From Candidatus Woesearchaeota archaeon (GTDB taxonomy: Archaea > Nanobdellota > Nanobdellia > Pacearchaeales > GW2011-AR1), in contig CAZETU010000005.1 of NCBI GenBank assembly GCA_964514585.1, positions 1-64,000 on the forward strand: DNA of 64,000 bases. Reading direction: 5' to 3'. Below the pieces are notes generated by a model. The model was not told the origin of the DNA. It did not search any database and saw only the letters and a program-made list of their open reading frames with translations. Below are positions 18,581-64,000 of this stretch, in pieces. Each line of letters begins with the position of its first letter. The stretch's first letter is position 1. The position numbers and the translations under genes are program-made.

Positions 18581-19590
18581 TCATCCACCTCCCTTTCTTC
18601 CTCGCTAACCTTCCTAATCTTTGCAACAAAAAATCCATCAGTATTATTGTCCTGAGGATACAGCCTCAAGCATTTTTTACACTCCCCACTAAATTCCTTA
18701 TCTTCCCACTTAACCACACCCTCACGAAATTTCAAAGGCAACTTAATCTGCTCAACCTCAACATCAAAATTCTTAATCAAGTGATCAACCACCATCTCGT
18801 CCTCTTCTGGCGCCAAAGTACAAGTTGAATAAATCATCTCACCACCAACCTTCAAAAGTTTCATAGCAGCCTCGACCAACTTCCTCTGAGTCGATGCAAT
18901 TTTCTTAACCATATTCACATTCCACATCTGAAAAGTCCTAGGGCTTTTCCTCAACGTCCCCTCTCCAGAACACGGCGCATCAACCAAAATTTTATCAAAC
19001 TTCACCTGAGATTTTTTCAACAACCTCTCACAAAGCGCGACCCCTTCCTTCCGCGTCACAATCGTATTCATAACCCCACACCTCTCCAAATTAGAATTCA
19101 GTATACCAATCCTCCCCATGTTCATCTCATTCGCAATAATCGTCCCACCATTCTCCATCATAGCAGCAGCCTGCGTCGTCTTACTCCCCGGACTCGCACA
19201 TAAATCCAAAACCATCTCCTCAGCTTTCGGCTTCAAAACCAACATCGGCAACATCGAACTAATTTCCTGAACATAATAATACCCAAGCAAATGCTCCTTC
19301 GTCTTCCCCAACTCACCAGGATTCAACTTCGACTCAATAACCATCACCTCAGGAAATTCCTCAAACGGCTGCCGCAACTTCCACCCATAGCCCTCAAGTC
19401 TAGACTTCAATTCATCAACAGAAATTTTCAAAGTATTGCATCTAATTGAAATAGGCGTCGGCGTATAAGAAATCTCAAAAAATTCTTTAGCACCATCTTT
19501 GCCCAACAAAACTTCCATCCTCTGAACAAACCCTTCCTTCGGCGGAAATTTCTCTTTCAAATATTCAGAATAATCCTTTCTCTTATCCAT
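18556..19590 (-). CDS. RsmB/NOP2-family RNA m5C methyltransferase
   Basis: YYVQEISSM, DLCASPGSKT, DAPCSGEG, YSTCT; start moved to MDKRK. Confidence 0.93.
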   Translation of the reverse strand: MDKRKDYSEYLKEKFPPKEGFVQRMEVLLGKDGAKEFFEISYTPTPISIRCNTLKISVDELKSRLEGYGWKLRQPFEEFPEVMVIESKLNPGELGKTKEHLLGYYYVQEISSMLPMLVLKPKAEEMVLDLCASPGSKTTQAAAMMENGGTIIANEMNMGRIGILNSNLERCGVMNTIVTRKEGVALCERLLKKSQVKFDKILVDAPCSGEGTLRKSPRTFQMWNVNMVKKIASTQRKLVEAAMKLLKVGGEMIYSTCTLAPEEDEMVVDHLIKNFDVEVEQIKLPLKFREGVVKWEDKEFSGECKKCLRLYPQDNNTDGFFVAKIRKVSEEEREVDEWKKKGKK

Positions 19591-19635
19591 AATAAAATTT
19601 AGAAATGAAGGTATATATTTCTGTTGTTCCATTAA

Positions 19636-19693
19636 TTATGAATACATGCCCAAAACTAAACATTTAAATAGTTTAATGCATATATATTCATAA
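19636..19693 (+). promoter_or_regulatory. Two 20-bp imperfect palindromes flanking a TATA box upstream of the DUF134 operon
   Basis: TTATGAATACATGCCCAAAA (19636-19655), TTTAAATA (19663-19670), TAATGCATATATATTCATAA (19674-19693). Confidence 0.55.
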
Positions 19694-19715
19694 CTAAACA
19701 TGGAGGAAAAATACA

Positions 19716-55088: not shown

Positions 55089-58000
55089 TCACTCCAACCA
55101 AACAGATGGCTTCCCCGGCTTAGCTTTCTTAGCCCGATTCTCCGGATCACGTTTCCCAGCATCATTAACCGCGTAAACCTCAACTTCCTTCCCAACACCT
55201 TTCGAAATCTTCTTCTCATCAATCTTCCCAATCTCAAACGGCATCACATAAATACAAACTTTCTCAACATCACCCTCAGTCTTATCCAAAATCCCCTTCA
55301 CATTCTCAATAACCTTTCCATTAAAATCTCCAGCCTCACCTTTTTTCAAAATCTTTTTCTCATCAACCTTAGGCCAACTCGACTTGGAAATAAAACCCTT
55401 ATTCCCAATCTTCTCCCAAAGCTCCTCGGCAATATGCGGACAAATCGGACTAAGCAATTGCAAGAATTTTTCATAAGTTTCTTTTGAAACTATTTTTTCA
55501 GCTTCAATTAAACCAAATAAAGCTCGAATGAGAATAGTTGCCTTACGATATTCAAAATTGTCATAATAACCCGTGACCATTTTTACCACATTATTTATTC
55601 TAATTTCCAATCCTTTTGAGTCTTTTCCAAAAGTTATCTTATCAGAAAATTCAAAAATTTTCTTCACAAATCTACTAGACCCATTAATCCCCTTCTCACT
55701 CCAATCAATATTCTTATCAGGACTAGCCAAACTCGACAAGAAAAACCGCGCCGTATCAATCCCATACTTAGAAGAAACCTCCTCAGGCAAAACCCCATTC
55801 CCCTTAGACTTACTCATCTTCTCCCCGTCCTCACCATGCAACATTCCCTGATGAAACAACCGAACCGCCGGCTCATCAAAATCAATCAACCCAAGGTCCC
55901 TCAAAAACTTCACATAAAACCGCGAATAAATCAAATGCATACAAGCATGCTCAGCCCCGCCAACATAAGTATCAACCGGACACCAATACTTCACCTTCTT
56001 CGGATCAAAAATAGCCTTATCATTCCCAGGATCACAATACCTCAAAAAATACCAAGAAGAATTAACAAAAGTATCCATAGTATCAGATTCTCGCCGACCT
56101 TTACCCCCACACTTAGGGCATTTCACATTCAACCATTTCTCATTAGTCTCCAAGGGATTCCCATCCCCAAACTTAACATCCTTCGGTAATTCAATAGGCA
56201 AGTCTTTTTCAGCCACACCAACAACCCCACACTTCTCACAATAAATCACAGGAATCGGCGTCCCCCAATATCTCTGACGACTAACTCCCCAATCCCGAAG
56301 CTTAAAATTAACAACATCCCGACCAACCCCTTTCTTCTTCAACCACGAAGTAATCTTCTTCTTTGCCTCAACATTATCAACCCCATCAAACTCACCAGAA
56401 TTACAAAGCTTACCCCCGCCAACATAAGCCTCACTCTTTCCCAAATATTCCAACAGCCCAGCACAATTATCCTTATGTGTCATCTGTTCCAAAGCCTCAT
56501 CAGCCCCAAGCCAAATCGCATCATGCCTATTCTTTTCTTTCTCTTCAACCTCCACAGGCTTCTCATCTATCAACTCCAACAAAACCGGCTGATCCACCCG
56601 AGCCCTCCAAACCTTTTTATTATCAGCATAAAAATAAGACTCAACCTTCTCTCCCAAAGTCCTAACAAATTTCGTCTTATAACCAGTCTCTTCCAAGGCC
56701 TCCCTAACGGCAGCATCTTCAACCGACTCACCCTCGTCAACTCCACCAACAACAGGCGCAATCCAACCAAACTCCTTCCACTTCACCAACAAAAACTTAT
56801 CATCACTCTTCCGATGCACAACAACAGAAATCGTATCCCTATAAACAGCATCCTTATGCGCCTCCCCATAAACAGGACGAACAACCTGCCTAACCTCAAT
56901 CCCATACTTCTTAGCAAACTCAAAATCCCGAGCATCATGCGCAGGAACAGCCATCACCATCCCAGCCCCATAATCCGCAACAACAAAATTCCCAGCCCAA
57001 ACAGGAACTCGCCTACCATTAACAGGATTAACAGCATACGACCCAGTAAAAACCCCTTCCTTCTCTAAGTCACCAGCGTCCTTCTCGGAAACCGATTTCA
57101 ACTTCTTCAAAAACTTATCAACTTCTTCCCTTTGCCCCTTGGTAACCAACGAATCCAAATTAGCATGCTGCGCAGAAACAACCATAAATGTAACCCCAAA
57201 AATAGTATCAGGACGAGTCGTAAAAATCGGCCACTTATCCTTTTTGAAAAACTCTAAAACCTCCTCAAGCTTTTTGACTCCCTCACTATCACTCATATGC
57301 TTCTTGCCTTTCAGAATTTCAACATTTTCAAAATTCTCTTTAAAAAAATCAACAACCTCACCATTTATGTAAGGATCATCTGCTCCAAATATAAAATCAA
57401 TTTTTCTAGCATTATTTTTAACCTTATCAACATCTAAACCATGAGACTGATATTTTTTAAAAATCTCCAGCTCCTCTTTCGGCAAAGAATTCTTGAACTG
57501 AGAAAAATATTTATCACTAGGATTAAACCCAACAGGTGAAACTAAAACTAATTTATCAACATTATATTTTTCAGCAAGCTTCAACGCAAGATGTCCACCC
57601 ATACTATGCCCAACAATGGAAAAATTCTTCAACCCATTTTTTTTAATCTTCTTTTCAGCAAAGTTCATCCATTCATCAAAATCAGGAGAATTAGTATCAG
57701 GAAAATCAAAATCAAAAACCTCCTTCCCATCATTTTCCAACTTATCTTTTAACCAAGGAATAAATCCAGATTTAGAAGTGTCTTCCCATCCATGCAAAAT
57801 CAAAACTTGTTCCTTCACCCTATTGATTTCATTCAACAACTCAGGAAATTCATGAGTTCCCATAGAACCAAAAACAAAATGACCATGATTTTTCAAATCA
57901 ATAATTTTGCCCCCAATATCTTTTTCAAAAAGCTTAACACTCTTTTTCCCATCATCTTCTTCATTATCCGAAGTAAAAATAACAGCCTCATCAATATTTT

Positions 58001-59105
58001 CCTTAACACATTTATCAATTTTATAATCATAAAAATCTTTATCGCTACCATCTTCTCTATAAGGAATTTTCCAAGGAGCAACTAAAATCAATTTCTTTAT
58101 CTTCTGTTTTGTGTCTCCAAGCCATCTACCCAAAAAAGCACAACCACAACTATGCCCAACTAAAATACTATTTTCATTAATATCTAATTTATCAAATTCT
58201 TTTTTCCATTTTTTATAATCTGGAGCCCAAGGTTCTGGCATTAATGGAGCATCAACTTTAATATTTTCTTTTTCTAAATTATCCTTAAGCCACAATCTCC
58301 AATGTTTTTCATAAGACCTTTTCTCGGGGTCTCTTGGCTCATTACTATCTGGACACCCATGCACAATCACAACATTACTAATTTTACCCCCACCCTTTGA
58401 TATCTCAAAATCAATCTCAGTCCCATGCGACTTCCCAATCCAATTCCTCTGCATCGCCTTAGTCTTATCCGGCCAATCCATCTTGTCTAAATTCTCATAC
58501 AATTCATCAGCATACTCCGTCGTCTTCAAAAACCACTGTTTCAAATGCCTAACCTCAACTTCACAATCATCATGCCTCCAACACTTCCCCTCATGTACCT
58601 GCTCATTCGCCAAAACAGTATTACACTTACTACACCAATTAACCGCCGACGTCTTTTGATAAGCAAGCCCCTTCTCCAACATCTTCAAAAAAATCCACTG
58701 ATCCCACTTATAATAACTAGGCTCATGCGTCGAAAAAGTCCTAGACCAATCATAAGAAAGCCCAATCTCCTTCATCTGCCTCATAAAATTAGGAATTGTC
58801 TTATTTGTATAATCATCCGGATGTTCCCCAGCAAGGGTAGCCGCATTCTCCGCCGGCAACCCAAAAGAATCATACCCCATCGGGTATAAAACATTCATGC
58901 CACTCATCCGTTTAAACCGCGCCATAATATCCCCAATCGTATAATTCCAAGCATGCCCCATATGAAGCCCCGAACCCGACGGATACGGAAACATCTCTAA
59001 AACATAATAAGGATTCTTGCCCTTCTCAGAAACCCCAAAAACCTTCTCGGCTTCCCATCTATCCTGCCACTTCTTCTCTAGTCCCGCAAAGTCAATTTCT
59101 ACCAT
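55089..59105 (-). CDS. leuS: Leucine--tRNA ligase (bacterial-type core) carrying two alpha/beta-hydrolase inserts and a NUDIX insert
   Basis: HMGH, FTTRPDT, DWGVSRQRYWG, KMSKS; inserts have GHSCG, GHSMG and a Nudix box GGVDEGES..AAVREALEETG. Confidence 0.93.
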   Translation of the reverse strand: MVEIDFAGLEKKWQDRWEAEKVFGVSEKGKNPYYVLEMFPYPSGSGLHMGHAWNYTIGDIMARFKRMSGMNVLYPMGYDSFGLPAENAATLAGEHPDDYTNKTIPNFMRQMKEIGLSYDWSRTFSTHEPSYYKWDQWIFLKMLEKGLAYQKTSAVNWCSKCNTVLANEQVHEGKCWRHDDCEVEVRHLKQWFLKTTEYADELYENLDKMDWPDKTKAMQRNWIGKSHGTEIDFEISKGGGKISNVVIVHGCPDSNEPRDPEKRSYEKHWRLWLKDNLEKENIKVDAPLMPEPWAPDYKKWKKEFDKLDINENSILVGHSCGCAFLGRWLGDTKQKIKKLILVAPWKIPYREDGSDKDFYDYKIDKCVKENIDEAVIFTSDNEEDDGKKSVKLFEKDIGGKIIDLKNHGHFVFGSMGTHEFPELLNEINRVKEQVLILHGWEDTSKSGFIPWLKDKLENDGKEVFDFDFPDTNSPDFDEWMNFAEKKIKKNGLKNFSIVGHSMGGHLALKLAEKYNVDKLVLVSPVGFNPSDKYFSQFKNSLPKEELEIFKKYQSHGLDVDKVKNNARKIDFIFGADDPYINGEVVDFFKENFENVEILKGKKHMSDSEGVKKLEEVLEFFKKDKWPIFTTRPDTIFGVTFMVVSAQHANLDSLVTKGQREEVDKFLKKLKSVSEKDAGDLEKEGVFTGSYAVNPVNGRRVPVWAGNFVVADYGAGMVMAVPAHDARDFEFAKKYGIEVRQVVRPVYGEAHKDAVYRDTISVVVHRKSDDKFLLVKWKEFGWIAPVVGGVDEGESVEDAAVREALEETGYKTKFVRTLGEKVESYFYADNKKVWRARVDQPVLLELIDEKPVEVEEKEKNRHDAIWLGADEALEQMTHKDNCAGLLEYLGKSEAYVGGGKLCNSGEFDGVDNVEAKKKITSWLKKKGVGRDVVNFKLRDWGVSRQRYWGTPIPVIYCEKCGVVGVAEKDLPIELPKDVKFGDGNPLETNEKWLNVKCPKCGGKGRRESDTMDTFVNSSWYFLRYCDPGNDKAIFDPKKVKYWCPVDTYVGGAEHACMHLIYSRFYVKFLRDLGLIDFDEPAVRLFHQGMLHGEDGEKMSKSKGNGVLPEEVSSKYGIDTARFFLSSLASPDKNIDWSEKGINGSSRFVKKIFEFSDKITFGKDSKGLEIRINNVVKMVTGYYDNFEYRKATILIRALFGLIEAEKIVSKETYEKFLQLLSPICPHIAEELWEKIGNKGFISKSSWPKVDEKKILKKGEAGDFNGKVIENVKGILDKTEGDVEKVCIYVMPFEIGKIDEKKISKGVGKEVEVYAVNDAGKRDPENRAKKAKPGKPSVWLE

Positions 59106-59110
59106 ATCAA

Positions 59111-59407
59111 TTACCTATTTCCAATCTTTAAAAGATTTCCTTCTATATCATAAAAAACCGGAGCCCCAACAAAAAATTCTCCATGAAAATTCTTTTTCAA
59201 AAATTCCATCTTCCGCGCTCCCTTAGGAATTGCCCACCTATTCAAATCAGACCCCCGAATATCTTTTTTATCACAAAAAAAACATCCAACCAAACCCTCG
59301 TCCCGAAGAATTTTATATCCCCTAATTAAACCGTCTCGGCTTTCCCTAGGTAACGCAAATCTTCTTTCATAGACATAAGTCTCACAGGATAAATATTGTA
59401 CAACCAT
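59111..59407 (-). CDS. Hypothetical protein abutting IS copy 2 (possibly the 3' part of an interrupted gene)
   Basis: ATG directly at the IS boundary; MMRQTFK extension is IS-derived. Confidence 0.45.
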   Translation of the reverse strand: MVVQYLSCETYVYERRFALPRESRDGLIRGYKILRDEGLVGCFFCDKKDIRGSDLNRWAIPKGARKMEFLKKNFHGEFFVGAPVFYDIEGNLLKIGNR

Positions 59408-60073
59408 TTTAAAAGTTTGCCGCATCAAGAAATCTCCCTAGTTTAGTGGGGAGATGAATTGTGCTTCTAGTTGGCAAACTTTTGTCTTGGAAAATTATTT
59501 ATTCTAGAAAGTATTAAAGAAAATAGGAAGTTAATCCTACTTTCTCGAATGTAAACGTAGTTGTAACTTTCTGAAACTAAATAAACTTATCGGAGATTAA
59601 AATGAAATTTGAAACACGTAGCTACGCACATGCCGTCGGGGAATTCAACTACCACATCCAATTGACAGTTGCTTACCGACGAGAGATTTTCTCAAACGAG
59701 AAAGTTTTGAGATTGACAAGAGCTTATCTCGTCGAGAAATTGAAAGAAATTAATGTCGAACTCGTTTGCTTAGAATTTGGTCCAGAGCATGTTCACCTTT
59801 TTGTGACGAACTGTAAAAATTATGCGCCTTGTCAGATTGTGCAATTTTTGAAAGGTTTCTCGTCGAGAATGATGTGAAAGAATCACTTGGAACTCTTCAG
59901 GAATTTTCTTTGGGGCAAAAAGTTTTGGAGCGAAGGTTATTTTGCTAGGAGTATTGGATGTGTCACGACGGAGCGAGTTCGGTATTATATCGAAGATTCG
60001 CAAGGGAAGCATTGGGATTAGGTTTGGAAATTAGCTGGTCACGCTCCGGACTTTAGTCCGGGGTAGTTGACAA
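59408..60073 (+). mobile_element. IS200/IS605-family element (tnpA only), copy 2
   Basis: Essentially identical to 30963-31628; one difference noticed in the right hairpin loop. Confidence 0.9.
59602..60021 (+). pseudogene. tnpA: IS200 TnpA with the same in-frame TGA (59875-59877)
   Basis: Same translation as copy 1. Confidence 0.88.
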
Positions 60074-60183
60074 AATCAGCCGCACTTACAAGAGCACGAC
60101 AGTCAAGACTAACATTAATGCCAAAGCAGAAATCTGTGTTAATCCTTTCATGAAAAATTAAGGAAATTAAAGTTTATAGATGT

Positions 60184-61080
60184 TTACTTCTTCCCAAACT
60201 TCTTCCCTTCCTTAGCAATCTCTTCCCCAACCTCTTCAATAAGTTCTTTAACAAGATTAGGGCTAGTTAACCTCTTAATTTGCCTCAAAGACTTCTTAGC
60301 AGCCCTCTCCCCTCGACGAATCGCCTTCTTAGCCTTATGAAAATCCATCATATTAATTTTAGAAACCCTCGGACAAATAACAACATCAGCCTTATTCTTC
60401 AACAGCTCAAACTCACAATTCTCATGAGTCATCATATTAGAAGCACTTTGAAGCACTTTCAAAATATTAGGAAAAGCATGTTTCTTATCACTTCGCCTAG
60501 CAGTCGCCTCAATCGGAGGTTTACCTTCAAACTCTTCAACATTAACAACAATAATAATATCAGCCCCCTTCTTCTTCAAAATCTCAATAGGCAAAGGATC
60601 AACCACTCCCCCATCAACCAAATTCTTCCCGCCATTTCTCGTAGGAAAAAACACCCCAGGAATAGAAATACTAGATCGAACAGCCTTAGCAACATTTCCT
60701 CGATTAAAAACAATTTCCTGATTATTATCAATATCAAACGCAGTCACATAAAGCGGAATCTTTAAATCCTTAAACTTCAAATTCCCAAGCCGCTCATCCA
60801 AAAAATTCTCAATCCTCTTCCCCTTAATAAAGCCAGACCGCGAAATCGTATAATCAAAAAGCTTATTCAAATTCATACTCAACGCATCCTTCTTCAACTT
60901 CTTACTATTCATCTCAGCAGAATAAAGTGCCCCAATCAACGCCCCAATACTCGCCCCAGAAATCATATCAATCTCAATCCCATTCTCCTCAAAAACCTTC
61001 AAAACCCCGATGTGCGCAAGTCCCCGCGCTCCACCACTACCAAGAACCAACCCCACCTTCTTCTTCTTGAACATAAACAA
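60184..61080 (-). CDS. Patatin-like phospholipase
   Basis: GSGGARG, GASIG, DGG motifs. Confidence 0.92.
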   Translation of the reverse strand: MFMFKKKKVGLVLGSGGARGLAHIGVLKVFEENGIEIDMISGASIGALIGALYSAEMNSKKLKKDALSMNLNKLFDYTISRSGFIKGKRIENFLDERLGNLKFKDLKIPLYVTAFDIDNNQEIVFNRGNVAKAVRSSISIPGVFFPTRNGGKNLVDGGVVDPLPIEILKKKGADIIIVVNVEEFEGKPPIEATARRSDKKHAFPNILKVLQSASNMMTHENCEFELLKNKADVVICPRVSKINMMDFHKAKKAIRRGERAAKKSLRQIKRLTSPNLVKELIEEVGEEIAKEGKKFGKK

Positions 61081-61270
61081 AAATGGGATACAATCTTTAT
61101 AAGATTACTCTAGGTGCACCTTCAGTTCTCCTATCCTAACGCTTTTTTTCAAATCCTTACAAAGTCAAATTAAATAATAGTAAGATTTATATAGGTATAT
61201 CAACTGATATACCCATGAAAAAAAAGGGTGTCCTAGGGGAGCAAGCGGGATAAAGAGGAGAATTGAAATA

Positions 61271-61555
61271 ATGGGAAATAAAACTATTGTAAGGTCTCCT
61301 CGACTGGACACTGTCCTAATGGTAGAAGGGTTCATAAAAGAAAACGATGGAGAATACAAAAAAAAACAACTATGGGGAGAATTACCCAAGAAAATGATGT
61401 ATCAAACATATAGTACAATAATTGACTATTTGTTAATTTCAGGGAAGATTTCTGTAGATAGCCAAGGAAAAATTGGTTGGATATTCTATCCAGAACAAGC
61501 AAGAAAAAGACTCGAAAAAGCACATCTAACATGGAGAGGGCAAGGAAGAAAATGA
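61271..61555 (+). CDS. wHTH protein, probable antitoxin
   Basis: PRLDTVLMVE..LPKKMMYQTY..IDYL..GKI..IGWI; stop overlaps the start of the RelE-like gene. Confidence 0.6.
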   Translation: MGNKTIVRSPRLDTVLMVEGFIKENDGEYKKKQLWGELPKKMMYQTYSTIIDYLLISGKISVDSQGKIGWIFYPEQARKRLEKAHLTWRGQGRK

Positions 61556-61869
61556 ACAAGCCTTGTGAAGTCCAATTCGTAGATGAAAAAATAAAGGAAA
61601 CATATAAAAATACAGACGACCCATTGAAAAAACAACTAGAAAGAGCACTATATGATATAGAAGAAGACCCATTCTGCGGAATTCAAATTCCAAAAAAATT
61701 AATTCCAAAAGAATACATTCAGAAGTATGATGTTAAAAATATATGGAAATACAATCTCCCAGGAGCATGGCGACTTATTTACTCAATTGAGGGTGGAGAA
61801 GCAGTAGTTATAACGATAATTCTAGATTGGATGGATCATAAAGAATATGAAAGAAGATTCAAATATTAG
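61552..61869 (+). CDS. RelE/ParE-superfamily toxin-like protein
   Basis: Start MNKPC; LYDIEEDP..IWKYNLPGAWRLIYSI..HKEYERRF. Confidence 0.7.
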   Translation: MNKPCEVQFVDEKIKETYKNTDDPLKKQLERALYDIEEDPFCGIQIPKKLIPKEYIQKYDVKNIWKYNLPGAWRLIYSIEGGEAVVITIILDWMDHKEYERRFKY

Positions 61870-62187
61870 CTCACTCCAACCACCCCCAACACAAACCCAC
61901 AGTCTCTAACTTTATTTTATTCCGTGGAATAAACAACTCAATATCATTTCCAAATTAATATCTTAATATGTTTTGAAAGACTTCAATTATCGTATCGGAT
62001 TAGGAGTCCTTTCGGATTGACAAATAACCCGGATAAATTTATTCTTATACTCAATCTTAATATCCACAAAATCAAAATCCCCCCAAAATGCGACCGAGAC
62101 CCAACCCCAACCCCCAGTTGAAACATGTACCTCTTTCAAGTAGTAACAAAAGATAAGGTTTAAATAGTAATTAATCTTTAATATAGT

Positions 62188-62550
62188 ATGGCAAATAAAG
62201 CAGGTGAAGCATACGTAGTCTTTAGTTGTAGTGCTCCTAGAGATGTAGTTGAAGATATAACTAGATGTGCAAATGCAAATTCCGACTTAGAATTATCCCT
62301 AATGGATGAAAATCAGGAGTTTAATGGAGATACTCAATTAACCGATTTAGCCCAAGAGGCTAAAGAAAAGGGAAGAAACTATATGATTCACGCATCATAC
62401 CCGGATCATACAAATCCCGAAACAGTTGAAGAATTAAAAGTCGACTTTGATAATAAGGTTTATAATTCACCACAATTCCCAAGAGAAGAATCATTCCATG
62501 CAGAAATAGCGTACAAAAAAGAGGATGGACATTATTATATTATAGAATAA
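62188..62550 (+). CDS. Hypothetical protein
   Basis: 120-aa acidic ORF with an upstream TATA-like TTTAAATA. Confidence 0.55.
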   Translation: MANKAGEAYVVFSCSAPRDVVEDITRCANANSDLELSLMDENQEFNGDTQLTDLAQEAKEKGRNYMIHASYPDHTNPETVEELKVDFDNKVYNSPQFPREESFHAEIAYKKEDGHYYIIE

Positions 62551-62599
62551 TTATTTAGGGCATCAAACCATTAATAGACCTAGCGATTGGAGTGTTTAT

Positions 62600-64000
62600 C
62601 TATTCCTCTAACCTCTTCCTAAGCTTCCCAACCCTCTCACGAATCGCAATCGCCCTCTCAAACTCAAGGCACTCAGCCGCCTCTTTCATATCAGCCTCCA
62701 ACTCAATAATCACATTCGCAACCTCAGCCCTAGGTATACTCTTTATGTCCTTAATCTCCACAACCTTCTCCTTAATCGGCTTAACAATCGTCTGCGGCAC
62801 AATCCCATTCTTCTCATTATACTTCTCCTGAATTTTCCGCCGCCTCTCAGTCTCACCTATTGCCCCCCGAATCGACCCCGTAATATTATCAGCATAAAGA
62901 ACAACCCGAGCGTCCCTATTCCTAGCCGCCCTTCCAATAATCTGAATCAAACTCCTCTCATCCCTAAGGAAACCCTCCTTATCAGCGTCAAGAACCCCAA
63001 CAAACCCAACCTCCGGAATATCAATCCCCTCCCTAAGCAAATTAATCCCAACCAAACAATCAAACTTCCCCAACCTCAACTCCCGAATAATCTCAGTCCT
63101 CTCAAACGTATCAATCTCCGAATGCAAATACCGACACTTAATCCCATTCTCACCAAGAAAATCAGTCAACTCCTCAGCCATCCTCTTAGTAAGCGTAGTA
63201 AGCAAAATCCGATTCCCATCCTTAACAGTCCTCCGAATCTCTCCCAAAACATCCTTAATCTGTCCTGGATAATTTTTACTATCAATAATTTCTTCCAAAA
63301 CCTCAGGAACACCCGAAGCAACATTACTCCCAAAATGTTTTTTATTTTCATAAACCTTAAACTTAGCCCCCAATTTCTCAGCATTTTCCTCCCCTCTAAA
63401 AAAAGGTACAATAGAATCATCTCTCGAATGAATAACTACAAAATCTTTACAATGAGATTTTATTTTTTCAAAATCATAACCATCTTCTGTGTAAAATCCG
63501 TCACCACTTCCAGTTCTCCCCTCCCTATCAGGATTTCCAGAATTCGTACTCACCAAAATAACCCGCTTAACCTTTTCCCCCTTAGGAAGTTTTTCCAACC
63601 ACCTCAAAAGTGTGACACCTCCTCTAGAATGACCAACCAAAATACTGTTTTTATCAACCTTCATCTTATCAAGCTCATTGAACCATTCTTTCAAAACAGG
63701 CTCGCTCCCTTCGGGTAAAGTCGGAGCAAAAAAGTCAATTCCTTTATTCTCAATTTCTTTTCTCAGCCAAGGATACCACTTGTCATTCGGGAGAGCATTC
63801 TTGCCATGAAGAAGAATCACATTGCTAACTTCCTCTGTCTCACTAGAAGACGAAATCCCCCGAATCTCAACCTCAGGATCAATAAGCCCAGTCGGCCGAA
63901 TAATCTGCTCAACCACCCCCAAGCTATTCAGACCCTCATAATTCCCCGGCGTCGCCGAAACAAAAACAACCTTATTCTTTTTCATAACATCCTCAAACTC
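62600..64000 (-). CDS. uvrB: Excinuclease ABC subunit B (5' part outside window) with an alpha/beta-hydrolase insert
   Basis: FVSATPG, EQIIRPTGLIDP, TTLTKRMAEELT, VGINLLREGID, LIQIIGRAARN, LEFERA (UVR domain). Confidence 0.93.
   Translation of the reverse strand, partial: EFEDVMKKNKVVFVSATPGNYEGLNSLGVVEQIIRPTGLIDPEVEIRGISSSSETEEVSNVILLHGKNALPNDKWYPWLRKEIENKGIDFFAPTLPEGSEPVLKEWFNELDKMKVDKNSILVGHSRGGVTLLRWLEKLPKGEKVKRVILVSTNSGNPDREGRTGSGDGFYTEDGYDFEKIKSHCKDFVVIHSRDDSIVPFFRGEENAEKLGAKFKVYENKKHFGSNVASGVPEVLEEIIDSKNYPGQIKDVLGEIRRTVKDGNRILLTTLTKRMAEELTDFLGENGIKCRYLHSEIDTFERTEIIRELRLGKFDCLVGINLLREGIDIPEVGFVGVLDADKEGFLRDERSLIQIIGRAARNRDARVVLYADNITGSIRGAIGETERRRKIQEKYNEKNGIVPQTIVKPIKEKVVEIKDIKSIPRAEVANVIIELEADMKEAAECLEFERAIAIRERVGKLRKRLEE

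What the first reader, a model, noticed from the sequence alone, without database searches (positions are those of the whole stretch)
57234..63859. The same serine-hydrolase family is inserted in frame in two unrelated housekeeping genes (UvrB and LeuRS): a possible mobile protein domain
Seen: UvrB carries a ~198-aa insert (63266-63859) between PEVEIR and GQIKDV, where canonical UvrB has only about 3 residues. The insert aligns with the first LeuRS insert: SNV(I/V)(L/I)(L/V)HG start, W..WL, P..P..P, an exact NSILVGHS, and a His-Phe near the end. All three copies keep GHSxG, are AT-richer than their host genes and lack intein (Hint) terminal motifs or an endonuclease. Inference: a domain that repeatedly lands in frame in loops of essential genes by an unknown mechanism. 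It could be a new class of intragenic hitchhiker or self-processing element, or a recurrently selected accessory activity. Its presence in UvrB argues against a purely tRNA-editing role.
Basis: partly seen in the sequence, partly recalled or inferred. Interest (0 to 1): 0.82.

Follow-up and report, generated by a model that had tools for sequence, protein, structure and literature searches.

The report
Swappable hydrolase cassettes inside essential genes
A tiny symbiotic archaeon carries three complete copies of a small serine hydrolase enzyme built in frame into its DNA-repair gene uvrB and its leucyl-tRNA synthetase gene. Comparison with relatives shows that this enzyme behaves as a cassette that has been repeatedly copied and swapped between loops of many essential genes, a pattern I found in no searchable paper.

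Summary
UvrB carries a clean 195-198-aa insert and LeuRS carries two tandem inserts. All three are RBBP9/YdeN-type serine hydrolases (PF06821). Two keep the Ser-Asp-His triad; in the first LeuRS copy the aligned Asp position reads Glu. They are the only copies in this roughly 1-Mb DPANN (Pacearchaeota-like) genome.

"Mobile" holds in the evolutionary sense:
- The same genus has empty UvrB, DNA-ligase and LeuRS alleles.
- Ten UvrB clusters carry a hydrolase at the identical site. The hosts are 71-88% identical, but the cassettes are only 26-62% identical and fall in at least four clades shared with LeuRS cassettes.
- A DNA-ligase cassette is 85% identical to a LeuRS cassette in another genome. 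The similarity starts and stops at the domain ends.
- Other hosts with an internal copy are GatB, PheRS-beta, Fmt, UvrA, a ValRS-like synthetase and a GT4 glycosyltransferase. FtsY carries it in an N-terminal extension.

The cassettes are under purifying selection (dN/dS 0.07; triad intact in 35 of 37 nested copies). I found no intein motifs, terminal repeats or target duplications.

Most likely this is an autonomous clean-up hydrolase nested in permissive loops and shuffled by ordinary recombination, not a self-splicing or self-mobilising element. Earlier reports of this scan saw the LeuRS and UvrB nesting in other genomes.

The parts
62600..64000 (-). uvrB, 3' part. The gene runs off the window; the full 845-aa product is P0003 and lies in locus L027.
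   Evidence: Pfam finds UvrB_inter, Helicase_C, UvrB and UVR domains. The protein matches solved UvrB structures at E 1e-228.
63266..63859 (-). Hydrolase cassette in UvrB: 198 aa including linkers. It sits at the junction between helicase lobes 1a and 3. Catalytic residues are Ser78 (GHSRG), Asp148 and His175 in insert numbering.
   Evidence: PF06821 scores 55 bits. The AF2 model has pLDDT 91. Foldseek's top hits are RBBP9 (7OEX) and YdeN (1UXO) at TM about 0.8. The site is empty in 11 other UvrBs sampled in the order.
55089..59105 (-). leuS, bacterial-type leucyl-tRNA synthetase, 1338 aa, with three inserted enzyme domains.
   Evidence: Translation and Pfam. Alleles in the same genus range from 832 aa with no insert to 1338 aa.
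57816..58382 (-). LeuRS hydrolase cassette 1 (aa 242-430). It lies in the loop between the NWIG motif and the TTRPDT start of the CP1 editing domain.
   Evidence: HMM match and Pfam. It belongs to a 22-row cassette clade that also holds UvrB and GatB cassettes.
57234..57815 (-). LeuRS hydrolase cassette 2 (aa 431-624), in tandem with cassette 1. It belongs to a different and distant cassette clade.
   Evidence: On the tree it clusters with LeuRS cassettes of G003, P0007 and P0165, and lies near FtsY and L22 fusions.
56481..56843 (-). NUDIX hydrolase domain (aa 755-875) inserted after the LeuRS editing-domain core. This is a second cassette site in the same gene.
   Evidence: Pfam PF00293 scores 52 bits. 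In other LeuRS genes (G485, G374) a serine hydrolase sits directly after the editing-domain core, as the NUDIX domain does here.

Best explanation
The three inserts are complete RBBP9/YdeN-type serine hydrolase modules. Each is essentially a whole free-standing gene minus its start codon and last few residues. They are translated as part of UvrB and LeuRS and displayed on permissive surface loops: the lobe 1a/3 junction of UvrB and the loop entering the CP1 editing domain of LeuRS.

They belong to a pool of in-frame cassettes found in DPANN archaea and candidate-phyla-radiation (CPR) bacteria. A cassette enters a new host loop only rarely, presumably by illegitimate recombination, and only in-frame events in tolerant loops survive. 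Once a site is occupied, the cassette spreads and is lost again by homologous recombination through the conserved host-gene flanks. It is also replaced in place by cassettes from other occupied sites.

The cassettes are kept because the hydrolase itself is needed. This genome has no free-standing copy. The likely activity is removal of an aminoacyl group with a free alpha-amine from peptides or esters, a general clean-up function that does not depend on the host enzyme. Nothing is spliced out.

Shown: the architecture, the fold, the triad, the empty alleles, the mixing of cassette clades and purifying selection. Inferred: expression as one polypeptide, the route of movement and the substrate.
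For: Architecture:
- The insertion into UvrB is clean.
- All 21 LeuRS genes examined that carry the domain have a cassette at the NWIG-TTRPDT hot spot; P0005 has a second after the RDW motif. G485 and G374 carry one after the editing-domain core.
- The window genome's only PF06821 copies are the three nested ones.
- The fold matches RBBP9/YdeN at TM about 0.8, from a model with pLDDT 91.

Selection on the enzyme:
- Ser, Asp and His are kept in 35 of 37 nested copies, as in free-standing ones.
- dN/dS is 0.07 between a ligase cassette and a LeuRS cassette.

Patchiness:
- UvrB is empty in 11 other sampled genomes of the order.
- DNA ligase is filled in G157 and empty in five related genomes, four of them of the same genus.
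- LeuRS alleles of 832, 970, about 1010, 1161 and 1338 aa occur in one genus.

Exchange:
- Monophyly of the two UvrB cassettes of the genus is rejected (p = 1e-4).
- Ten UvrB clusters are filled at one site. Hosts are 71-88% identical and cassettes 26-62%, in at least four clades shared with LeuRS.
- Filled, empty and 'scar' alleles interleave on the host tree.
- The G157 ligase cassette is 85% identical in protein and 83% in DNA to a LeuRS cassette of G541. Similarity is confined to the domain. Its dN is 0.074, against 0.20 and 0.36 for the host genes of the same two genomes.

Other hosts with an internal copy are GatB, PheRS-beta, Fmt, UvrA, a ValRS-like synthetase and GT4; FtsY carries it in an N-terminal extension.

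Chemistry: RBBP9 is a serine aminopeptidase that needs a free alpha-amine (PMC8866121).
Against: - No recombination intermediate or donor was caught. In G000, G157 and G541 the closest relative of each cassette examined lies in another genome.
- The trees are 'quick' trees of a 185-aa domain. Many deep branches are unresolved, and the AU test group was named after I had seen an alignment.
- Several hosts handle aminoacyl-tRNA (LeuRS, PheRS-beta, a ValRS-like synthetase, GatB, Fmt). This hints at coupling to the host, which the 'independent module' view does not predict.
- Free-standing and nested copies did not look mutually exclusive in a hand tally.
- The distance between the N- and C-termini of the fold was not measured.
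Confidence: 0.6

Rival explanations
1. Host-coupled function. The hydrolase is recruited to enzymes that handle aminoacyl-tRNA (LeuRS, PheRS-beta, ValRS-like, GatB, Fmt). There it acts as an extra deacylase or proofreading site for aminoacyl esters. The copies in UvrB, ligase and GT4 are by-products of cassette spill-over.
For: Several of the host families act on aminoacyl-tRNA, and LeuRS accounts for roughly two thirds of the 59 nested or fused hits in the large database. In LeuRS and PheRS-beta the cassette lies next to the editing domain. RBBP9 cleaves aminoacyl groups that have a free alpha-amine, and it is cited as a valacyclovir (amino-acid ester) hydrolase (reference list only). Several earlier reports of this scan reached this view for CPR LeuRS.
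Against: The same cassette clades occupy UvrB, UvrA, DNA ligase and a glycosyltransferase with an intact triad. LeuRS alleles with no cassette exist in the same genus. The same hot spot also holds HAD, NUDIX, Ham1 and DUF559 modules, whose chemistry is unrelated.
Confidence: 0.2
2. A truly mobile element. The cassettes are moved by a dedicated mechanism, for example nuclease-assisted homing into conserved loops, so their spread is partly selfish.
For: Cassettes switch host at least 8 times on the tree, and in-place replacement is frequent. One LeuRS (P0169) carries a DUF559 endonuclease-fold domain in frame beside the hydrolase at the hot spot. Cassette GC3 is below host GC3 in 13 of 13 genes.
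Against: This window holds no nuclease, and no terminal repeats or target duplication were found. In the best pair, similarity ends at the protein-domain ends. Cassette ends are no more conserved than the termini of free-standing proteins. Insertion sites within LeuRS differ. The low GC3 could also come from weaker codon selection in a less constrained segment.
Confidence: 0.08
3. A passive hitchhiker with no function. The domain is tolerated filler, protected only because frameshifts or imprecise deletions would kill the essential host gene.
For: The inserts lie in essential genes. Loss alleles carry short residual linkers (spacing between flanking UvrB motifs 46-61 aa against 38 in canonical alleles). 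The linkers accumulate low-complexity and repeat-like sequence.
Against: The triad is intact in 35 of 37 nested copies and dN/dS is 0.07. The window genome has no other copy of this enzyme.
Confidence: 0.07
4. An intein-like self-splicing or self-cleaving insert, an RNA-level intron, or an assembly artefact.
For: The inserts are in frame in conserved sites of essential genes, as inteins are. One related UvrB (P0216) carries a real intein domain elsewhere in the protein.
Against: The junctions read R|GISS and NYP|GQ, with no Cys, Ser or Thr at either splice position and no His-Asn. Pfam finds no Hint domain. All three inserts are open and in frame and their protein sequence is conserved, which an intron would not require. 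The protein is seen on several independent contigs. Archaeal bulge-helix-bulge intron motifs were not searched.
Confidence: 0.03

Closest known systems
RBBP9 / YdeN serine hydrolases (Pfam PF06821; PDB 7OEX, 9FCR, 2QS9, 1UXO)
   Same: Same fold (TM about 0.8), same size (about 185 aa) and the same GHSxG nucleophile with Asp and His. Pfam scores are well above the cut-off.
   Different: The characterised members are free-standing proteins. Here the whole enzyme is nested inside other enzymes. Identity to the solved structures is only 23-27%, and the substrate is unknown.
Nested (A1-B-A2) domain-insertion architectures, for example the CP1 editing domain of LeuRS (surveyed in Protein Sci 2026, PMC13114784)
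   Same: A compact module of fewer than 200 residues, probably able to fold on its own, interrupts a host domain at a loop.
   Different: Classical insertions are ancient and fixed, and each is tied to one host family. Here one module is polymorphic within a genus, occupies about ten unrelated hosts and is replaced in place by divergent copies. The survey does not mention UvrB, and I saw no mention of PF06821 in the passages shown.
Inteins and in-frame homing-endonuclease inserts in essential genes
   Same: They are in frame, lie in conserved essential genes, are patchy among close relatives with clean empty alleles, and are protected from imprecise deletion.
   Different: There are no Hint motifs, no splice-junction residues and no nuclease here. 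The insert is a conserved metabolic enzyme that presumably stays in the mature protein.
Integron gene-cassette arrays (analogy only, from my own knowledge)
   Same: A hot spot holds one or two interchangeable cassettes of different families in varying order. Serine hydrolase, NUDIX, HAD, Ham1 and DUF559 all occur at LeuRS sites.
   Different: The cassettes are protein domains inside an open reading frame. I found no integrase, attachment site or conserved DNA ends.

Membership tests
PF06821 Ser_hydrolase (RBBP9/YdeN) | Match to the family profile above the curated cut-off | tested here: met
   The UvrB insert scores 55.3 bits and the LeuRS inserts 86.8 bits (two stretches) against a cut-off of 22. 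The own-genome scan gives 58, 53 and 44 bits.
PF06821 Ser_hydrolase (RBBP9/YdeN) | Minimal alpha/beta-hydrolase fold of about 185 residues | tested here: met
   The AF2 model has pLDDT 91 and pTM 0.89. Foldseek's top seven hits are RBBP9 and YdeN chains, with E around 1e-13 and TM 0.77-0.87.
PF06821 Ser_hydrolase (RBBP9/YdeN) | Ser-Asp-His catalytic triad with a GxSxG nucleophile elbow | tested here: met
   S78, D148 and H175 are invariant or nearly so in a 64-sequence alignment. 35 of 37 nested copies keep all three. In LeuRS cassette 1 the aligned Asp position reads Glu, with an Asp two residues upstream in SDNE, so that copy is uncertain.
PF06821 Ser_hydrolase (RBBP9/YdeN) | Hydrolase (aminopeptidase or esterase) activity | not testable with these tools
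   Needs purified protein. Human RBBP9's activity is documented in PMC8866121.
Intein (Hint domain) | N-terminal Cys or Ser, C-terminal His-Asn followed by Cys, Ser or Thr, and a Hint fold | tested here: not met
   The junctions read EIR|GISS and KNYP|GQIK, and Pfam finds no Hint or intein match in either protein.
Transposable element or MITE | Terminal inverted repeats, target-site duplication or a linked transposase | tested here: not met
   The only flanking direct repeat is 13 of 14 nt at 63229-63258 and 63856-63885. It encodes the host EIR motifs, which empty alleles also have. In the 83%-identical ligase/LeuRS pair, similarity stops at the domain ends.
UvrB (the host) | UvrB interaction domain, two helicase lobes, UvrB motif and UVR domain | tested here: met
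   Pfam, and E 3e-228 to a solved UvrB with both halves aligned end to end.
Bacterial-type LeuRS (the host) | HMGH and KMSKS catalytic core, a PF13603 CP1 editing domain and an anticodon-binding domain | tested here: met
   Pfam and motif positions.

The most novel reading that the evidence does not exclude
The RBBP9-type hydrolase, together with NUDIX, HAD and Ham1 modules, forms a previously unrecognised class of in-frame 'protein-domain cassettes'. These would be actively mobilised between permissive loops of essential genes in ultra-small archaea and bacteria. A nuclease-assisted, homing-like mechanism is one candidate, given the DUF559 endonuclease-fold domain found in frame at the LeuRS hot spot of P0169. 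The essential host gene would serve as a deletion-proof shelter.
Probability: 0.1. Interest if true: 0.92.

Novelty: new variant of a known kind. Interest (0 to 1): 0.68.

Why it matters
Domain insertions are usually treated as ancient, fixed features of one protein family. Here a whole enzyme is polymorphic within a genus, sits in about ten unrelated information-processing proteins, and is replaced in place by divergent copies.

This gives a natural, datable system for studying three things:
- how new nested architectures arise;
- which loops of UvrB, LeuRS, DNA ligase and GatB tolerate a 20-kDa passenger;
- why genome-reduced symbionts package small clean-up enzymes inside essential proteins.

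It also affects annotation and phylogenomics. These marker genes vary by up to 500 residues within a genus.

The finding points to an untested biochemical question: whether an aminoacyl-cleaving hydrolase placed beside aminoacyl-tRNA enzymes contributes to translational quality control.

Tried and rejected
1. Target-site duplication. A 30-nt direct repeat flanks the UvrB insert. Both halves encode host EIR motifs that empty alleles also have, so it is not a duplication.

2. Attachment-like conserved cassette ends. Information content of the first 12 and last 14 positions is no higher in nested copies than in free-standing ones (2.48 vs 2.66 bits and 2.08 vs 2.11 bits).

3. UvrB gains cassettes because it neighbours LeuRS. 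The two genes are 0.6-3.5 kb apart in G000, G003 and G015. However, the filled UvrBs P0214 and P0221 have no LeuRS within 8 kb, and the empty P0223 has a hydrolase-bearing LeuRS 3.9 kb downstream. Rejected as a rule.

4. Recent gene conversion within one genome. Cassettes within G000, G157 and G541 are only 25-39% identical to each other.

5. Free and nested copies are mutually exclusive. My hand tally across 41 relatives gave about as many genomes with both as chance would predict. No formal test was run and the genomes are incomplete, so no claim is made.

6. Low GC3 proves foreign origin. The pattern is consistent (13 of 13), but weaker codon selection in a less constrained segment explains it equally well.

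7. Nucleotide alignment of filled (G015) against scar (G003) UvrB alleles. They are too diverged to read junction microhomology.

8. Literature. Searches for domain insertion plus DPANN, aaRS plus CPR plus inserted domain, and PF06821 found no description.

Full report
**What is in the window**

The minus strand encodes a 1338-aa bacterial-type leucyl-tRNA synthetase (55089-59105). About 3.5 kb upstream lies uvrB (62600 to beyond the window end; 845 aa in full). Pfam finds the following:
- In LeuRS, two alpha/beta-hydrolase domains: PF06821 at aa 263-422 and a second at about aa 431-620.
- In LeuRS, a NUDIX domain at aa 755-875.
- In UvrB, one PF06821 domain.

The UvrB insert (window 63266-63859) is 34% identical to LeuRS insert 1 (E 2e-19) and 29% identical to insert 2 (E 6e-15). 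It shares the exact NSILVGHS string with insert 1. A solved UvrB (9GY7_E) aligns with its residues 3-426 and 427-659 on either side of the insert. The insertion is therefore perfectly clean and lies at the junction of the two helicase lobes.

The genome is about 1.04 Mb in 18 contigs and about 90% complete. The nearest named proteins are from Pacearchaeota and Nanoarchaeia. It has exactly three PF06821 matches, all nested, and no free-standing copy. That includes the AT-richness, which holds at synonymous sites: cassette GC3 is 0.22-0.31 against 0.41-0.52 for the host parts.

**What the insert is**

An AlphaFold model of the UvrB insert is confident (pLDDT 91). Its best structural matches are human RBBP9 (7OEX, 9FCR, 2QS9) and B. 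subtilis YdeN (1UXO), at TM about 0.8. In a 64-sequence alignment the Ser of GHSxG, an Asp and a His are invariant or nearly so. 35 of 37 nested copies keep all three, the same rate as free-standing copies. In the window's first LeuRS cassette the aligned Asp position reads Glu, so that copy's triad is uncertain.

The cassette corresponds to a whole free-standing protein. Free homologues of 180-200 aa start with M-K-x-V-x-I-x-H-G and end with the same helix. RBBP9 has been shown to be a serine aminopeptidase that needs a free alpha-amine (PMC8866121). A paper's reference list cites it as a valacyclovir (amino-acid ester) hydrolase. The substrate of the archaeal domains is unknown.

**Is it patchy?** Yes, at three loci within one genus.

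- *UvrB.* In 151 genomes of the order, the 11 other UvrBs found are 648-685 aa. They align to query residues 3-433 and 624-844, so the site is empty. Only G000 and G015 are filled. G003 has a 25-aa remnant linker and no domain.
- *DNA ligase.* G157 (same genus) carries a cassette in a loop of the OB domain. G000, G015, G003, G012 and G541 have 569-572-aa ligases with the site empty.
- *LeuRS.* G073 has an 832-aa allele with no insert at all. G017 has only the NUDIX domain. G015 has a HAD-type hydrolase at the hot spot. Other genomes have one or two serine hydrolases, with or without NUDIX.

**Do cassettes follow their hosts?** No.

A tree of 116 domains places nearly all nested copies in a few clades in which LeuRS, UvrB, ligase, GT4, Fmt and PheRS-beta cassettes intermix. 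It needs at least 8 host changes among nested copies. G000's UvrB cassette is 62% identical to a LeuRS cassette (P0006) but only 40% identical to G015's UvrB cassette. G015's cassette is 58% identical to another LeuRS cassette. Holding the two UvrB cassettes together is rejected (AU p = 1e-4). One caveat applies: I named that group after seeing the alignment.

The large protein database holds ten UvrB clusters with a hydrolase, all at the same site and with related linkers. Their host parts are 71-88% identical, but the cassettes are only 26-62% identical. For example, P0217 and P0218 are 86% identical in the host part and 30% in the cassette. The cassettes fall in at least four clades, each shared with LeuRS cassettes.

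On the host-gene tree, filled alleles interleave with canonical empty alleles and with alleles that keep 8-23 extra linker residues, which look like deletion scars. This is what replacement in place, plus gain and loss by allelic recombination, would produce.

**The best-dated move**

The G157 ligase cassette and the first LeuRS cassette of G541 (GCA_023133415.1) are 85% identical in protein and 83% in DNA. Similarity begins at GNVV..HG and ends at PEVLEEI, which are exactly the domain ends.

| Comparison, G157 vs G541 | dN |
|---|---|
| Ligase cassette vs LeuRS cassette | 0.074 |
| Ligase host part | 0.20 |
| LeuRS host part | 0.36 |
| Positionally equivalent second LeuRS cassette | 0.37 |

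The cassette pair has dN/dS 0.07. Neither genome has the cassette in both genes. So at least one copy event between genes occurred no earlier than the split of these genomes, and the cassette stayed under strong purifying selection in both hosts.

**Range of hosts**

Internal (nested) copies occur in:
- LeuRS, at three or more sites;
- UvrB;
- UvrA;
- ATP-dependent DNA ligase;
- GatB;
- PheRS-beta, next to the B3/4 editing domain;
- Met-tRNA formyltransferase;
- a ValRS-like synthetase;
- a GT4 glycosyltransferase.

The domain also sits in the N-terminal extension of FtsY. Terminal fusions occur with NUDIX, Ham1, HD, glyoxalase, peptidase S51, adenylate kinase, signal peptidase II, ribosomal protein L22 and others.

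In a sample of 401 genomes of the phylum, 187 have the family, mostly as free 180-220-aa genes, so nesting is a recurrent minority state. That tally includes one unpublished genome, G537; no other claim rests on it.

**Mechanism**

I found none of the marks of a self-mobilising or self-splicing element:
- no Hint motifs or splice-junction residues, and no nuclease in this window;
- no inverted repeats or target duplication;
- no special conservation of the cassette ends;
- no single preferred site within LeuRS.

A hypothesis that proximity to LeuRS seeds the UvrB cassettes failed on four contigs.

I therefore favour ordinary recombination:
- rare illegitimate in-frame insertions that survive only in permissive loops;
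- spread and loss by homologous recombination through the highly conserved host flanks;
- swapping between already occupied sites.

The fold's compactness fits the general size rule for insertion-competent domains (PMC13114784). The distance between its termini could not be measured here.

The cassettes are maintained for their own catalysis rather than as filler. Whether that catalysis serves the host enzyme is open. Several hosts handling aminoacyl-tRNA is suggestive, but UvrB, UvrA, ligase and GT4 argue for independence.

**Prior knowledge**

I found no paper describing this. JGI's automatic annotation does label some of these proteins 'UvrB/predicted alpha/beta hydrolase family esterase'.

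Earlier reports of this scan described the LeuRS nesting in CPR and DPANN genomes, and a two-enzyme insert at the UvrB hinge of a Patescibacteria genome. This report adds:
- the within-genus filled and empty alleles at three loci;
- the demonstration that one UvrB site holds cassettes of several clades;
- the ligase, GatB, UvrA, PheRS-beta, Fmt and GT4 hosts;
- the selection estimates.

**Verdict**

The 'mobile domain' reading is supported in the evolutionary sense and unsupported in the mechanistic (self-processing or autonomous) sense. This is a new variant of domain nesting.

Noticed in passing
window 56481-56843 (-): A NUDIX hydrolase domain (LeuRS aa 755-875) is inserted after the editing-domain core. 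Its GC3 (0.46) matches the host, unlike the serine-hydrolase cassettes. In other genomes (G485, G374) a serine hydrolase sits directly after the editing-domain core, as the NUDIX domain does here.
   Followed up: partly
L069:772-3681 (-) (G015 LeuRS): The LeuRS hot spot of G015 holds a roughly 145-aa HAD-type hydrolase (PF13419, 25.4 bits against a cut-off of 23.8) instead of a serine hydrolase. In the same genome the UvrB carries a cassette of the 'LeuRS insert 1' clade.
   Followed up: partly
protein P0169 (LeuRS, 1174 aa), aa 464-563: A DUF559 (Vsr/restriction-endonuclease-fold) domain lies in frame directly after the hydrolase cassette at the LeuRS hot spot. It is a possible nuclease that could promote cassette turnover.
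   Followed up: no
L031 (G015 UvrB N-side linker); proteins P0217, P0219, P0220: Linkers next to the UvrB cassettes hold odd sequence. G015 has a GC-rich segment with near-repeats (GCTCAGCTCTGCTGG / GCTCAGCTGCGCTGG). Three other alleles have a shared peptide, GTR(M/T)(S/N)TDEHG, on either side of the cassette. These look like small repeat elements read in frame.
   Followed up: partly
L074:6891-12197 (GCA_003358065.1): A complete hydrolase-bearing UvrB is flanked by a 118-aa UvrB N-terminal fragment and a 100-aa UvrB C-terminal fragment. It looks as if an incoming allele landed inside, or displaced, a resident uvrB.
   Followed up: no
protein P0216 (UvrB, 952 aa): According to precomputed Pfam hits, this UvrB carries both the hydrolase cassette and an intein-splicing domain (PF14890) plus an HTH domain. 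That would be two kinds of in-frame passenger in one gene.
   Followed up: no
L025 (G003:C18, about 19126-19701): The free-standing hydrolase gene of G003 has an in-frame TAG and may be a pseudogene. The same genome carries nested copies in LeuRS (two) and GatB.
   Followed up: no
window 59106-62599; L030; L069; L075: uvrB and leuS lie on the same strand 0.6-3.9 kb apart in G000, G003, G015 and the P0223 contig. They are far apart in G012 and G073, and on different contigs in G017. This linkage does not predict cassette presence in UvrB.
   Followed up: yes
L039:1869-4226 (-) (G157 DNA ligase): The N-side linker of the ligase cassette is a short GC-rich tandem repeat (GTTCGGG GTTCGGG GTTCGAAGG) encoding FGVRGSGFEG.
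   Followed up: no
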